A DNA stretch of 45,847 nucleotides, from positions 1 to 45,847 of the IMG/VR virus record IMGVR_UViG_3300016656_000172, one strand, 5' to 3'. Both the position numbers and the translations under genes were made by a program. The notes beneath the pieces were generated by a model. The model made no database searches. It was not told the DNA's origin and was given only the letters and a program-made list of their open reading frames with translations. The stretch comes from a virus (lineage: Duplodnaviria; Caudoviricetes). Shown one piece after another: positions 15,982 through 19,487 of the stretch. Numbering within the stretch: the first letter of the stretch is position 1; the number at the start of each line of letters is the position of its first letter.

Positions 15982-16601
15982 TGCGCATAGCCATCACGGA
16001 ATCGAAGGCGCCCAAGCCGAAGAAGTGCAAGAACCCAGCGTGCGGGGACTCATTCGTCCCGCAGCGCCTTGGGCAGGCGGTGTGCGGATACAAGTGCGGT
16101 CTGGCCATCAAGGATGTCAATCGGGCGAAGGCCGGCAAGGCGTTGGCCCAGATTGGTCGCCGCGAGATCCAGGCACGCAAGGAGAAGCTGAAGAGCAGGG
16201 CGGATCACGCCAAGGATGCTCAGGCAGTCATCAACCGTTACGTGCGGCTGCGTGATGCTCATCTGGGCTGCATCAGCTGTGATAAGCCGGCGAGCTGGGG
16301 CGGCCAATGGCACTGCTCGCACTTTCGCAGCGTAGGCGCCGCCGCGCACCTCCGTTTCAACCTCTGGAACATGAACAAGTCCTGCTCCCAGTGCAATGCA
16401 CATCTGAGCGGAAACATCATGGTTTACCGCCCCCGCTTGGTCGAGAAGATCGGCGCGGAAAAGGTGGAATGGCTGGAGCGCAATCAGGATCTGGTTCGCC
16501 ATGAAATACCTTATTTGAAGCGCCTTAAGGCTGTCTTCACAAAGAAAGTGAGACGCCTTGAAAAGCGTTACGAGGAGGTCTTGTCATGTGCAGCGATGTG
16601 A
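15981..16601 (+). CDS. ninG: NinG/Rap endonuclease
   Basis: N-terminal Cys cluster, YVRLRD...CISC, HFRSVGA..HLRF..N...C.QCN.HLSGN. Confidence 0.9.
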   Translation: MRIAITESKAPKPKKCKNPACGDSFVPQRLGQAVCGYKCGLAIKDVNRAKAGKALAQIGRREIQARKEKLKSRADHAKDAQAVINRYVRLRDAHLGCISCDKPASWGGQWHCSHFRSVGAAAHLRFNLWNMNKSCSQCNAHLSGNIMVYRPRLVEKIGAEKVEWLERNQDLVRHEIPYLKRLKAVFTKKVRRLEKRYEEVLSCAAM

Positions 16602-17218
16602 TTCTTCTGCGCAAATTCACCGAAGTCCGTTCTGGGAACCGTCGATCTATTGGGGTTTTCCAGTGCCGCGACTGCCTTGGTGAGTTTGAGTCGCGCACGG
16701 AGCGGGCAAAGGTAATGACAGGGCTTTGCCTGCCTTGCGCCAACAAGCGTGGCGCCCAAAAGCGCTCTACGCACGGTTTCAATAACAAAAACAGCCGGCT
16801 GCACGTGGCCTGGTCGAACATGAAACGCCGCTGCCTGAATCCGCGCGGTACCGAAATTCAGAAGTACCAAGGCGTAACACTTTGCGAAGAATGGAAGAGC
16901 TTCAAGCCCTTCATGGAGTGGTCTCTCGCCAATGGGTACACCGATCAGCTGACGCTTGACCGGGTCGAATCCTCGAAAGGCTATGAGCCAGGTAATTGCC
17001 GTTACGCCGATTACAACGTGCAGGCGGCCAACCGCAAAAAGACGGACAAGAACACCAGCGGACACGTCGGGGTTTCTTGGGACCGTGGCAGATGGTGCGC
17101 GAAGGTCCAGTGGCAGAAGAAGCAGATACACCTCGGCCGGTTCAAGGATCTCAACGACGCAGTGAAGGCGCGCAACGATTACTTGGCGGCGCACGACCTG
17201 CCGCACTTGAGGGCATAG
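16586..17218 (+). CDS. HNH-AP2 homing endonuclease-like protein
   Basis: W.NMKRRC.NP, TLDRV....GY.PGNCR (HNH-like) and NTSG..GVSW...W.A......HLGRF (AP2). Confidence 0.88.
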   Translation: MCSDVILLRKFTEVRSGNRRSIGVFQCRDCLGEFESRTERAKVMTGLCLPCANKRGAQKRSTHGFNNKNSRLHVAWSNMKRRCLNPRGTEIQKYQGVTLCEEWKSFKPFMEWSLANGYTDQLTLDRVESSKGYEPGNCRYADYNVQAANRKKTDKNTSGHVGVSWDRGRWCAKVQWQKKQIHLGRFKDLNDAVKARNDYLAAHDLPHLRA

Positions 17219-17220
17219 CA

Positions 17221-17295
17221 ATGGACGAAATCAAAACCATCAAGGCCGAATACCGGGCCAAGACCCGAGAACTGAAAAAGGGGCAGGCAGCATGA
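17221..17295 (+). pseudogene. Relic 3' end of the original ninG (24 codons) coupled to Q
   Basis: DEIKTIKAEYRAKTRELKK resembles the NinG C-terminal helix. Stop overlaps the Q start (ATGA). Confidence 0.65.
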
Positions 17296-17972
17296 ATTAC
17301 CACAACGTGATCTCAGCAGTAGTCCGGGCCTTGGCTGCCGAGACGATCAACAGTTCCGGCGGATGCAACGTCGAGCCCCGGGTACAGGCCAGCAAGCTCA
17401 AGGGTGAAATATCCGGGAAGGATGCCGCGCTGTTGGCTGACTGCATCGTGCACAAGCTTCTGCACGCCCAGCTTTCTCCGCGGCACTGGAACGCCTTGGT
17501 GGCGAAGTACAGCACCCACCGTGGCCGAAAAATCGATTCCATCGGCCGGCTGGTCGCCGTGGTGAAGACCCCAGCACCGCAGCGCTTCACGCAACAGTCC
17601 GTCTTGGTCTGGGCGGTTCCGCAGCAGGTGAAGGGCATTCAGCGAGCGGTTACCCAGATCAAGGCGCCGAAGCACCGGGAGAACAAGGAGGAGGGGCAGT
17701 GGGATTGGCGCAACGCGGCAGCCGACGCTGATGTTGCCCGGGCCAACAAGCATGCGCGCGCGGTAGCAGAGGACAAGCCCGGCGAGATGATCGTCCTGGC
17801 CGACTCGAACTACGAAATGACGAATTGGGATTCCCAAGGGCTTACAGAGCGCACTTACCAGCGCTGGAACAAGGCCATCAAGGACGGCTTGGAGTCACTT
17901 GTGAACGAGGCTCTGGTCGAGGCGCAACACATGCTTGAAGCAGTCGGAGTGCTGGAAGGCGAAGCGGCATAA
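17292..17972 (+). CDS. Putative late antiterminator (Q position)
   Basis: Last gene before the late promoter and terminator; C-terminal HTH-like TERTYQRW. Confidence 0.7.
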   Translation: MNYHNVISAVVRALAAETINSSGGCNVEPRVQASKLKGEISGKDAALLADCIVHKLLHAQLSPRHWNALVAKYSTHRGRKIDSIGRLVAVVKTPAPQRFTQQSVLVWAVPQQVKGIQRAVTQIKAPKHRENKEEGQWDWRNAAADADVARANKHARAVAEDKPGEMIVLADSNYEMTNWDSQGLTERTYQRWNKAIKDGLESLVNEALVEAQHMLEAVGVLEGEAA

Positions 17973-17991
17973 AATAGTCCCTCAAAAGGGC

Positions 17992-18021
17992 TTGCAATGT
18001 CATGTCGCCATGTCGCATTAT
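17992..18021 (+). promoter_or_regulatory. PR'-like late promoter with ATGTC direct repeats in the spacer (candidate Q-binding element)
   Basis: TTGCAA-N18-CATTAT; ATGTC-ATGTCGCC-ATGTCGC. Confidence 0.6.
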
Positions 18022-18063
18022 TCACCCATCCTGTCATTCCTGCGTGTGTAGGACTGACGAACG

Positions 18064-18090
18064 AAACCCGGCCACCGCGCCGGGTTTTTT
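18064..18090 (+). terminator. tR'-like intrinsic terminator
   Basis: AAACCCGGC-CACCGC-GCCGGGTTT-TTT. Confidence 0.85.
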
Positions 18091-18122
18091 ATTGCCTCGA
18101 ATTCAACCTTCTGGAGCTGCGC

Positions 18123-18287
18123 ATGAAGCTGAAAGCCAAAAGCAATCTGCTGGAGCGCGCCAGAAAGGCTTGGGAAGCGGTCGCACGCCAAGTTGGCGAG
18201 ACCGACTTCTCGCGCAACCCGCGCACCGGCGAGTATCTGCACCCCGGTGTCGCCATGGGTTGGCGCATCCACAAAAAGAATCTGTAG
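18123..18287 (+). CDS. Small basic hypothetical protein (54 aa)
   Basis: GGAG SD; first ORF of the late transcript. Confidence 0.6.
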   Translation: MKLKAKSNLLERARKAWEAVARQVGETDFSRNPRTGEYLHPGVAMGWRIHKKNL

Positions 18288-18292
18288 TTACA

Positions 18293-18488
18293 CCTGTAGC
18301 CAGGACAGCCTTCGGGAATGCCTGGACGTCGATAGCCGGATAGTGCGACGTACGGAATCAACACCGGCAGCCCGCGCACCCTGACCTCAACTTGCTTTCG
18401 GGGTGGCGCGAGACTGGATCAGCGAGATCGATGCAACGGGGCGTCGACGCTGAGAAGGTCTTTGGCAGACAGCTCGGAAAGACGAGCG
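18293..18488 (+). ncRNA. Candidate structured ncRNA in the late leader
   Basis: Five or more stems, a cUUCGg tetraloop, a possible pseudoknot and no credible ORF. Confidence 0.55.
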
Positions 18489-18489
18489 A

Positions 18490-18732
18490 CTATTTCTTCC
18501 TCATTTGACGCCTGATGCGCATCCAGTCCTGATAAGCAGCGGTTCGTTTTGCATCGGCTACGGCTTTCATTTCCGTGAAGCGGGACCATGCTTCCGCGCT
18601 TTCCGGATCGGCTTGAATGATCTTATAAGCGGCGTCATCGAGTAGATCTGCATCACGAAACATTTTGGTATTGGCAGCAATTTCGTCATCCCAAGAGTGT
18701 TCATCGAAAAAGCCCAGAATGCTCTCTGTCAT
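18490..18732 (-). CDS. Hypothetical helical protein (80 aa), accessory
   Basis: GAGG SD; overlaps the upstream gene of the same leftward pair. Confidence 0.7.
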   Translation of the reverse strand: MTESILGFFDEHSWDDEIAANTKMFRDADLLDDAAYKIIQADPESAEAWSRFTEMKAVADAKRTAAYQDWMRIRRQMRKK

Positions 18733-18985
18733 TTGCTTGATCCTCTTCCCAGGCAATGGCGGAAGACTCGCGCCATCGCACATCGGTGACCCCGAAGCGC
18801 TCGGCCATAGGCTTGGTGTAGCGCTTGATGGGAGGGCGGCCTGGTCTTGGGATAGGAGCGATGCCCGCGTCACAGCTCGCCCATTGCCAGGCTTCTGCAT
18901 TGTTCATCACCTTAGTCCGAATGACGAACGACTTAGGTTCCCCATGAAGCTTGTAATCAACCACGAAAACATCGACCTGTTTCAT
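18701..18985 (-). CDS. Small Pseudomonas protein (DUF6555-like), accessory
   Basis: Y.LHG.PKSF.IR...M.NAEAW.WASCDAG motif; AGGAGG SD. Confidence 0.7.
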   Translation of the reverse strand: MKQVDVFVVDYKLHGEPKSFVIRTKVMNNAEAWQWASCDAGIAPIPRPGRPPIKRYTKPMAERFGVTDVRWRESSAIAWEEDQANDREHSGLFR

Positions 18986-19154
18986 GAGTCCTCCTATTGC
19001 TCATGAACTAATGATTTTGCGCCTTTCAGAAAATTCAAAGAATTGTCGGACAATCTGTAGTTCTTTGATTTAGGTCACTTATTTCCCATAGTCAGAGCGA
19101 TCCTTGCGAAGGCCCTGACAATGAATAGCCACTCCCTGACGGGGAGGAACCGAG

Positions 19155-19487
19155 ATGCCAAACATGCCAGACAAACCAGACACATGGGCGATAGCGCTTG
19201 CGTGGTTGAGCCAGCATTCGCCGATCCTCTATGCGGCTGCGCTGTCCTGCGCTATGGCCGTCTTGCGAATCACTTACGGTGGCGGTACGCGTCGCCAGAT
19301 GCTGGTGGAGGGCGCCATTTGCGGCGGCCTGACGCTGACCATCATCAGCGGGCTGGATTTCTTCGGACTGCCCCAGAGCATGGCGACATTCGCCGGCGGC
19401 TGGGTTGGCTTCCTGGGCGTGGAGAAGATCCGCAACATCGCCGACCGAGTGACTGACATTAAGTTACCGGCCCGCAAGGCAGAGTAG
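19155..19487 (+). CDS. Lambda-family holin
   Basis: Three hydrophobic segments, GG.VGFLGVEKIR, basic tail; GGAGG SD. Confidence 0.92.
   Translation: MPNMPDKPDTWAIALAWLSQHSPILYAAALSCAMAVLRITYGGGTRRQMLVEGAICGGLTLTIISGLDFFGLPQSMATFAGGWVGFLGVEKIRNIADRVTDIKLPARKAE

What the first reader, a model, noticed from the sequence alone, without database searches (positions are those of the whole stretch)
18293..18488. Complex, probably pseudoknotted ~195-nt ncRNA in the late leader
Seen: CCAGG/CCTGG (18300-18325) capped by cUUCGg; GCCGG/CCGGC (18335-18368) whose loop CGACGT (18346-51) is complementary to upstream ACGTCG (18326-31), forming a pseudoknot; CGCGCACCCTGA/TCGGGGTGGCGCG (18373-18410); AGACT/GGTCT enclosing TCAGCG/CGCTGA and TCGATGC/GCGTCGA (18411-18461); and a terminal GCTCG-GAAAGA-CGAGC hairpin. 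It lies downstream of tR', in the slot where lambdoid phages often carry tRNAs, but it is not a tRNA. Inference: a late-expressed functional RNA such as a ribozyme, protein decoy or anti-defence RNA.
Basis: partly seen in the sequence, partly recalled or inferred. Interest (0 to 1): 0.75.

Follow-up and report, generated by a model that had tools for sequence, protein, structure and literature searches.

The report
Extended Proteo-phage-1 pseudoknot RNA
The gap ahead of this Pseudomonas phage's lysis gene holds a conserved ~195-base stretch, predicted to fold as a knotted RNA, whose first 79 bases match a catalogued phage RNA family of unknown function and whose remaining ~115 bases lie outside that catalogue entry; it is likely a stable RNA made late in infection, alongside phage tRNAs.

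Summary
The structure is real; its core is already catalogued. Bases 18294-18372 match Rfam RF03044 (Proteo-phage-1, function unknown; 79.2 bits, cut-off 42). The model stops at 18372, but the fold goes on. In 64 Pseudomonas homologues a 56-pair structure over 18300-18487 is 95% paired, and 21 pairs change on both sides against 11 in shuffles. The 18326-31/18346-51 helix covaries across alpha-, beta- and gammaproteobacterial relatives. The second pseudoknot helix is nearly invariant, with two compensatory variants. A helix just after the pseudoknot, missing from Rfam, recurs across the family (23 of 39 clusters, 8.5 expected). The terminal GAAAGA hairpin is a separate phage module, often found alone and near tRNAs. 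The RNA sits after a terminator or 12-15 nt after a tRNA. It also occurs in Mu-like early operons, in satellite-like elements and in a chromosomal stress-gene cluster. Best reading: a tRNA-like cargo RNA, cut from the late transcript, that binds a conserved host factor (0.45). Main rival: a cis-acting elongation element (0.3). No discrete transcript or function is shown. This scan already reported the same element in another genome (e1-6200041).

The parts
17292..17972 (+). 226-aa gene in the Q slot after ninB/ninG; likely late antiterminator (lead only)
   Evidence: PHROG 3412, unknown function; no Pfam or NCBIfam hit; one ESM Atlas neighbour cluster at 0.92 has PF06323 Phage_antiter_Q in 13% of members; homologue upstream of the RNA in 39 of 83 loci
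17992..18021 (+). PR'-like promoter candidate (TTGCAA, 18 nt, CATTAT)
   Evidence: Seen in the sequence; 8 of 12 consensus matches, below the scan's threshold (one search found none); homologues L211, L238 and L257 have TTGACA at this place
18064..18090 (+). tR'-like intrinsic terminator (GC hairpin plus U tract)
   Evidence: Sequence; not reported by the consensus scan; similar hairpin-plus-U-tract before the RNA in several homologues
18123..18287 (+). 54-aa ORF inserted between terminator and RNA; accessory
   Evidence: No PHROG or Pfam family; present in 8 of 83 homologous loci at 89-100% identity
18294..18372 (+). Match to Rfam RF03044 Proteo-phage-1 (whole 82-position model)
   Evidence: 79.2 bits, gathering score 42, E 6.6e-13
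18300..18325 (+). P1 hairpin (CCAGG/CCTGG, internal loop, 2-bp cap)
   Evidence: 99% paired in 64 homologues, 1 of 5 pairs with a two-sided change; sequence and length vary in distant relatives
18326..18351 (+). P2, first pseudoknot helix (18326-31 with 18346-51)
   Evidence: 4 of 5 pairs with two-sided changes in 38 diverse cores, covariation score 0.303 vs 0.069 shuffled; see the selection caveat in the full report
18335..18368 (+). P3, second pseudoknot helix (GCCGG 18335-39 with CCGGC 18364-68), with conserved AGTG and AAC-N loops
   Evidence: 99% paired and nearly invariant, partly fixed by my search patterns; compensatory variants in L569 and L590, both found by model searches
18370..18466 (+). 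P4 domain outside the Rfam model: closing helix 18370-72/18464-66, arm 18373-18410, and inserted arm 18411-18461 (three-way junction)
   Evidence: Arm 18373-18410: 7 of 12 pairs with two-sided changes; helices 18419-53 and 18428-47: 4 of 6 and 3 of 7; a helix starting at the G after CCGGCA in 23 of 39 clusters vs 8.5 expected, maximum 16 in 1000 shuffles
18468..18487 (+). Terminal module: GACA linker plus hairpin with GAAAGA loop
   Evidence: 3 of 5 pairs with two-sided changes, 98.7% paired; occurs without the pseudoknot in 78 of 120 viral hits
18490..18985 (-). Two small accessory genes on the opposite strand (80 aa, 18490-18732; DUF6555, 18701-18985) where many homologues have a terminator
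   Evidence: present in 9 and 10 of 83 loci
19155..19487 (+). Lambda-family holin, first lysis gene downstream
   Evidence: TIGR01594 99.1 bits; PHROG 126; homologue downstream on the same strand in 44 of 83 loci

Best explanation
This is a full-length member of the orphan Proteo-phage-1 RNA family, about 115 nt longer than its Rfam model, which is likely co-transcribed in the antiterminated late transcript, likely cut out by host nucleases as a stable RNA in the way neighbouring phage tRNAs are, and predicted to act in trans by binding a conserved host protein or complex through its near-invariant pseudoknot. Shown: the sequence, the family match, the covarying fold, and the position after a terminator or tRNA. 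Inferred: transcription only on read-through of the upstream terminator, release as a discrete RNA, and a host rather than a phage partner. The partner is not identified.
For: (1) Family match and covarying fold. (2) Not protein-coding: across 123 homologues the core-to-end distance falls into all three frames (41/51/31) and an open frame spans the element in only 39 (+) and 15 (-). (3) Sharp, gene-like borders: homologues agree from about 18293 to about 18490 and diverge on both sides. (4) It shares the tRNA cassette: 15 of 128 loci have a same-strand tRNA, none an opposite-strand one; in 10 a tRNA ends 12-15 nt before P1; in L005 tRNA-Gly starts at the terminal hairpin. (5) A terminator lies within 45 nt upstream in 81 of 128 loci and within 70 nt downstream in 72 of 128, against 2 of 99 control windows. 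(6) No shared neighbour gene: lambdoid late leaders, after the Ner-like gene of Mu-like prophages, before exonuclease or Sak4-like genes, after a major head gene, after head-closure or terminase genes, and between metallothionein and KGG stress genes near DUF892 and Mn catalase on Pseudomonas chromosomes. (7) The same core occurs in Pseudomonas, Xanthomonadales, Rhodobacterales and Betaproteobacteria, which points to a conserved partner (inference).
Against: No discrete transcript is shown. RNA-library contigs from four studies carry relatives of the element, but contigs cannot show ends, strand or level, and those of X6 and X8 run on into flanking DNA. Three of the contexts (late leader, after Ner, early-left operon) are heads of long operons, where cis-acting antiterminators sit. 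In Mu-like prophages the next gene starts about 120-170 nt after the core with no terminator seen by eye. tRNA neighbours occur in only 12% of loci. No partner was identified, and invariance of P3 is partly built into my search patterns.
Confidence: 0.45

Rival explanations
1. A cis-acting element of the nascent transcript that modifies elongating RNA polymerase or recruits host Nus-type factors (works like HK022 put or a nut site), and so raises read-through into the genes behind it.
For: It lies at the head of long operons in lambdoid late leaders, after the Ner-like gene in Mu-like prophages and before recombination genes. HK022 putR lies ~270 nt downstream of PR and binds the host beta-prime zinc-binding domain (PMC9378689, passages). 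A terminator follows within 70 nt in 72 of 128 loci. Host RNA polymerase would explain an invariant core.
Against: A terminator lies directly upstream in 81 of 128 loci, so the RNA would be made only by polymerase that already reads through. In L183 and L188 it lies after packaging genes with an opposite-strand tRNA downstream, as at an element's end. The fold differs from the ~70-nt two-stem put, and my core model finds nothing in HK022.
Confidence: 0.3
2. A self-cleaving or processing ribozyme that cuts polycistronic phage RNA, for example trimming tRNA trailers as theta ribozymes are proposed to do.
For: Compact pseudoknot with near-invariant unpaired bases; intercistronic position; fixed 12-15 nt spacing after a tRNA in 10 of 128 loci.
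Against: No Rfam ribozyme family matches even at E <= 10. The fold is a single H-type pseudoknot, not the nested double pseudoknot of HDV-like ribozymes (PMC10879173, passages); loop 2 is 6 nt or less in 39 of 39 clusters. Most copies follow a terminator, where a cut adds little.
Confidence: 0.1
3. A base-pairing small RNA that uses the C-rich P4 loop (ACCUCA) against ribosome-binding sites, with the rest as scaffold; or an RsmA/CsrA sponge.
For: The P4 loop is pyrimidine-rich in many Pseudomonas copies; the window's loop 3 holds ACGGA.
Against: Complementarity to the phage's own genome is at chance: four 11-mers vs 4.1 expected, none of 12 or more. The loop varies freely among close homologues. 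ANGGA occurs in loop 3 of only 4 of 39 clusters. The host genome was not tested.
Confidence: 0.1
4. A DNA-level site or a functionless relic that only looks folded.
For: Some prophage copies are broken or truncated (L564, L566, L576, L577).
Against: G-U pairs outnumber A-C mismatches 270 to 64 at helix positions, which favours RNA of this strand; two-sided changes in 21 of 56 pairs; both pseudoknot helices have compensatory variants.
Confidence: 0.05

Closest known systems
Rfam RF03044, Proteo-phage-1 RNA (typed 'Gene; sRNA'; function unknown; that it comes from the Weinberg et al. 2017 survey, PMC5737381, is my recall, since the name is not in the searchable text)
   Same: Whole 82-position model matched at 79.2 bits; same P1 and P2 stems; phage context.
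   Different: The model as printed shows neither the P3 pseudoknot helix nor anything past 18372. Its last bases are the 5' strand of a family-wide P4 helix. This copy adds a three-way junction and a terminal hairpin. Xanthomonadales Mu-like relatives (L203, L239, L243, L258) and L260 fall below the cut-off: 15 of 20 loci tested were hit.
HK022 put antiterminator RNA (PMC9378689, passages)
   Same: Structured phage RNA in operon leaders that needs no dedicated phage protein.
   Different: put is ~70 nt, two stem-loops, downstream of early promoters. This RNA is ~195 nt, pseudoknotted, and usually sits just after a terminator; no model match in HK022.
Theta (minimal HDV-like) ribozymes (PMC10879173, passages)
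   Same: Pseudoknotted phage RNA found just 3' of tRNA genes in some loci.
   Different: Single H-type pseudoknot, no room for the HDV P3/L3 domain, and a tRNA directly upstream in only 10 of 128 loci.
GOLLD and ROOL RNAs (PMC5737381, Results part 1)
   Same: Orphan structured RNAs often in prophages and near tRNAs, also outside prophages.
   Different: Far larger (ROOL averages 581 nt); no Rfam match to either.

Membership tests
Rfam RF03044 Proteo-phage-1 | Covariance-model score above the gathering threshold over the whole model | tested here: met
   79.2 bits vs 42, positions 1-82 of 82
Rfam RF03044 Proteo-phage-1 | Both model stems (P1; P2) can form | tested here: met
   No non-standard pair marked; 99% and 96% paired in 64 homologues
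Rfam RF03044 Proteo-phage-1 | Exists as a discrete small RNA (the 'Gene; sRNA' label) | tested here: inconclusive
   Only contigs were available; they cannot show ends or strand
HK022 put RNA | About 70 nt, two adjacent stem-loops, downstream of an early promoter | tested here: not met
   Pseudoknot plus four further domains; terminator directly upstream in 81 of 128 loci; core model finds no match in HK022
HK022 put RNA | Binds the RNA polymerase beta-prime zinc-binding domain and suppresses termination in cis | not testable with these tools
   Needs transcription assays
HDV-like / theta ribozymes | Nested double pseudoknot with a P3/L3 domain | tested here: not met
   Loop 2 is 6 nt or less in 39 of 39 clusters; no GG after the helix in any of 39 (the GG/P1.1 feature is recalled); no Rfam ribozyme hit at E <= 10
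HDV-like / theta ribozymes | Self-cleavage | not testable with these tools
   Needs in vitro assay
tRNA / tmRNA | Cloverleaf or tmRNA model match | tested here: not met
   ARAGORN 0 genes; no Rfam match
RsmY/RsmZ-type CsrA sponges | Several conserved loop-exposed ANGGA motifs (recalled feature) | tested here: not met
   ANGGA in loop 3 of 4 of 39 clusters, GGA in 8 of 39

The most novel reading that the evidence does not exclude
Proteo-phage-1 is the binding core of a modular, trans-acting phage RNA class that targets a conserved proteobacterial machine (RNA polymerase, ribosome or a nuclease). It is built from swappable arms, capped by a GAAAGA hairpin that marks unit ends in phage stable-RNA and tRNA cassettes generally, and was kept by one Pseudomonas lineage as part of a chromosomal stress-gene cluster.
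Probability: 0.2. Interest if true: 0.8.

Novelty: new variant of a known kind. Interest (0 to 1): 0.45.

Why it matters
The family is common: 35 of 151 sampled genomes of one Pseudomonas genus carry it. It has no assigned function, and four paper searches for the name, accession or terminal motif found nothing (one search gave nothing on it). Anyone testing the 82-nt Rfam version would be testing a fragment that cuts a conserved helix in half. The full boundaries, the natural short and long forms, and a non-phage chromosomal copy in a culturable Pseudomonas group make the function directly testable without inducing a prophage. The stand-alone terminal hairpin is a second, uncatalogued motif.

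Tried and rejected
Rfam at relaxed thresholds found nothing for the 3' 115 nt or for the stand-alone hairpin in 20 loci. BLAST found only phage phiAH14a among 50,697 phage records (2 records) and nothing in plasmids; phiAH14a is annotated with an opposite-strand hypothetical ORF across the RNA, which the frame test does not support. Earlier notes claim divergent relatives in P22 and N4. My 54-position core model gave only a partial 16-bit match inside the P22 tailspike gene, nothing in N4, HK022 or phiEt88, and two weak matches in lambda. A descriptor scan found nothing in P22. So I could not confirm the claim, but my model is narrow. A partition-function test of the P4 helix was weak (19 of 39 vs 13.6 in shuffles); the direct complement test was clear, and both are reported. 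A 5'-3' long-range pairing (CUGU/ACAG) is broken in several homologues and was dropped (by eye). RNA-library contigs are not evidence of transcription; a second laying on a longer stretch did not complete. One search used a mistyped structure and is void (redone). The 54-aa ORF was first scanned one base out of frame and redone against PHROGs, Pfam and the loci, not against NCBIfam. The supplement of PMC5737381 could not be read; it may already draw the pseudoknot, mention 3' extensions or report ribozyme assays. The Minerva preprint (10.64898/2026.09.22.753630, passages) has no occurrence of 'proteo'.

Full report
Observation. The 18326-31/18346-51 and 18335-39/18364-68 helices cross, giving an H-type pseudoknot. 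Single-sequence folding is modest over the whole region (z = -2.0) and strong over the 3' part, 18370-18490 (z = -4.2, 0 of 200 shuffles). No tRNA or tmRNA is called in the window.

Identity. The only Rfam match in the window is RF03044, Proteo-phage-1, at 18294-18372 (79.2 bits, cut-off 42, E 6.6e-13). Nothing else in 17900-19200 reaches a family cut-off. Searches for the family name or accession found no paper. I recall that the motif comes from Weinberg et al. 2017 (PMC5737381). I saw that paper's outline and the first of four parts of its Results, and its supplement could not be read, so what it says of this motif is unseen.

Setting in this genome. The order is ninB, ninG, an HNH gene, a 226-aa gene in the Q slot, a promoter-like TTGCAA-N18-CATTAT (17992-18021), a terminator-like hairpin with U tract (18064-18090), a 54-aa ORF (18123-18287), the RNA, two small opposite-strand genes, and a lambda-family holin. 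The Q assignment is a lead from position and one ESM Atlas neighbour cluster (PF06323 in 13% of members). In 83 homologous loci with long flanks, NinG lies upstream in 53, the Q-slot protein in 39, and the holin downstream in 44, always on the RNA's strand.

Extent of the element. A core pattern gave 173 hits in viral and genome contigs. Of these 144 passed a filter for true homology; 130 of the 144 continue to a GRRAGA hairpin 150-170 nt downstream, 3 are a short form, and 11 lack a recognisable end (the viral scan covered 41 of 64 parts). I aligned the window with 63 of 96 non-redundant homologues. A 56-pair structure is 95.3% paired; 21 pairs change on both sides against 11.2 in shuffles (0 of 500), and slid controls are 32-43% paired. 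These sequences are related (82% mean identity), so the shuffle count is not a probability. Outside the Rfam model, two-sided changes occur in 7 of 12 pairs of the 18373-18410 arm, 4 of 6 and 3 of 7 pairs of the inner arm, and 3 of 5 pairs of the terminal hairpin. RNAalifold found an extra helix, 18370-72 with 18464-66, that closes a three-way junction; it does not vary, so it has no covariation of its own in this set. G-U pairs exceed A-C mismatches 270 to 64, pointing to RNA of the + strand. The spacing is not kept in frame (41/51/31 over 123 sequences). In a set found by the Rfam model rather than by my patterns (35 of 151 Pseudomonas genomes; 30 loci read), 19 of 30 carry the inner arm and 18 of 30 pass a strict script test for the terminal hairpin; the script misses a few seen by eye and passes one doubtful case. 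Short forms lack the inner arm but keep P4 and a terminal hairpin.

Distant relatives. Looser patterns brought in cores from Stutzerimonas, Xanthomonadales, Rhodobacterales and Betaproteobacteria. 244 distinct cores fell into 46 clusters; I dropped 6 as likely chance hits and, for P4 tests, one more with a mis-anchored loop. In the 40 kept, P2 positions 2-4 are paired in 40 of 40 with several pair types. My finder demanded at least 4 pairs, so that count is partly selected. The fifth position, not demanded, pairs in 31 of 40 against 20 in shuffles, and the sixth is not supported (18 vs 16). On a MAFFT alignment of 38 cores, in which three rows including the window are shifted by one column, the covariation score is 0.303 vs 0.069. 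P3 is almost invariant, partly by construction. Model-based searches gave two compensatory variants, GCCAG/CTGGC (L569, 1 of 30 loci) and GGCAG/CTGCC (L590, 1 of 9 matches), and some broken copies (L566, L568, L575, L577). The six bases after CCGGCA, which were not selected on, have a downstream complement in 23 of 39 clusters against 8.5 expected (maximum 16 in 1000 shuffles), with many pair types; a partition-function version of this test was weak (19 vs 13.6). The Rfam model therefore ends inside a family-wide helix. Many of the clusters are related Mu-like prophages, so they are not fully independent.

Where the family sits. Besides lambdoid late leaders, it lies after the Ner-like gene and before the transposase region of Mu-like prophages, before exonuclease or Sak4-like genes, after a major head gene, and after terminase or head-closure genes. 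A cluster of 15 copies, from genome records nearly all titled P. brassicacearum, P. corrugata, P. mediterranea or related Pseudomonas (one is titled Leclercia), keeps the full 3' domain; in the three loci I read it lies between a metallothionein gene and a KGG stress-repeat gene, near DUF892 and Mn catalase genes. Among 128 window-type loci a terminator lies within 45 nt upstream in 81 and within 70 nt downstream in 72, against 2 of 99 control windows. Same-strand tRNAs occur in 15 of 128 and opposite-strand ones in none; in 10 the tRNA ends 12-15 nt before P1.

The terminal hairpin is its own module. A pattern for it gave 120 viral hits (16 of 64 parts scanned): 31 with the standard core, 11 with variant or partial upstream domains, and 78 alone. 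Of the 78, 63 form a perfect stem, 16 have a same-strand tRNA in the locus, and in 9 a tRNA starts 1-9 nt after it. A second copy lies on the same strand in 12 of 73 loci and on the opposite strand in none. It is in the mEp390 early leader and the phiEt88 late leader. No Rfam family and no paper matched. I infer a boundary or processing signal; this is untested.

Expression. No run holds half of the sampled words of 17950-18600. Contigs from four RNA-labelled runs of four studies carry relatives over the element, but contigs show neither ends, strand nor level, so this is not evidence of a discrete transcript.

Mechanism. Shown: family membership, fold, borders, contexts. Inferred: with a terminator or a tRNA directly upstream and no promoter of its own seen, the RNA would be made only in read-through transcripts and released by host processing, like the tRNAs beside it. 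An invariant core across three proteobacterial classes and unrelated element types, with no constant neighbour gene, suggests a conserved host partner. I put this trans-acting reading at 0.45. A put- or nut-like cis element (0.3) is the serious rival, because several contexts are heads of long operons; the upstream terminator and the copies at the ends of operons count against it. Ribozyme (0.1) and antisense or sponge (0.1) readings failed the feature tests I could run.

Novelty. The core is a catalogued orphan family; the family-wide P4 helix, the Pseudomonas three-way junction, the terminal module and the chromosomal stress-cluster copy are not in the Rfam model as printed. Earlier notes of this scan describe the same 195-nt element in another genome and 13 findings on the family; these are AI notes, not independent support, and I could not confirm their P22 and N4 relatives. 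Verdict: new variant of a known kind, interest 0.45.

Noticed in passing
window 18468-18487; L543:1502; L544:1510; loci L423-L542: The UGACA-stem-GAAAGA-stem-ACA hairpin is a widespread stand-alone phage motif, often repeated about 210 nt apart in early leaders or 1-9 nt before tRNA genes; no Rfam family or paper found.
   Followed up: partly
L145, L562/L211, L257, L068, L568 (directly after the RNA); L544 about 1700-1830: A second conserved module beginning G(A/G)TGAATGCGCAGGCTGATGCG and ending in a T-arm-like hairpin follows the RNA in 3 of 128 loci and lies in the phiEt88 late leader; no Rfam match at E <= 0.5.
   Followed up: partly
L196, L210, L213, L214, L223, L253 and others: Apparently chromosomal copy of the full RNA in the P. 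brassicacearum/corrugata group, between metallothionein and a KGG stress protein near DUF892 and Mn catalase; L217 has a copy after a DUF2188 gene.
   Followed up: partly
L258, L289, L311, L316, L317 (P4 helix): In Xanthomonadales relatives P4 has tandem G-A pairs next to a 2-nt bulge, resembling a kink-turn (seen by eye).
   Followed up: no
window 17998-18016: The spacer of the late-promoter candidate holds a direct repeat (CATGTCGC twice), a possible binding site for the Q-slot protein.
   Followed up: no
window 16586-17218: An HNH endonuclease gene is inserted between ninG and the Q-slot gene.
   Followed up: no
L174 (phage phiAH14a, KU708004): The record annotates an opposite-strand hypothetical ORF (AH14a_p55) across the promoter, terminator and RNA; probably a false gene call.
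   Followed up: partly
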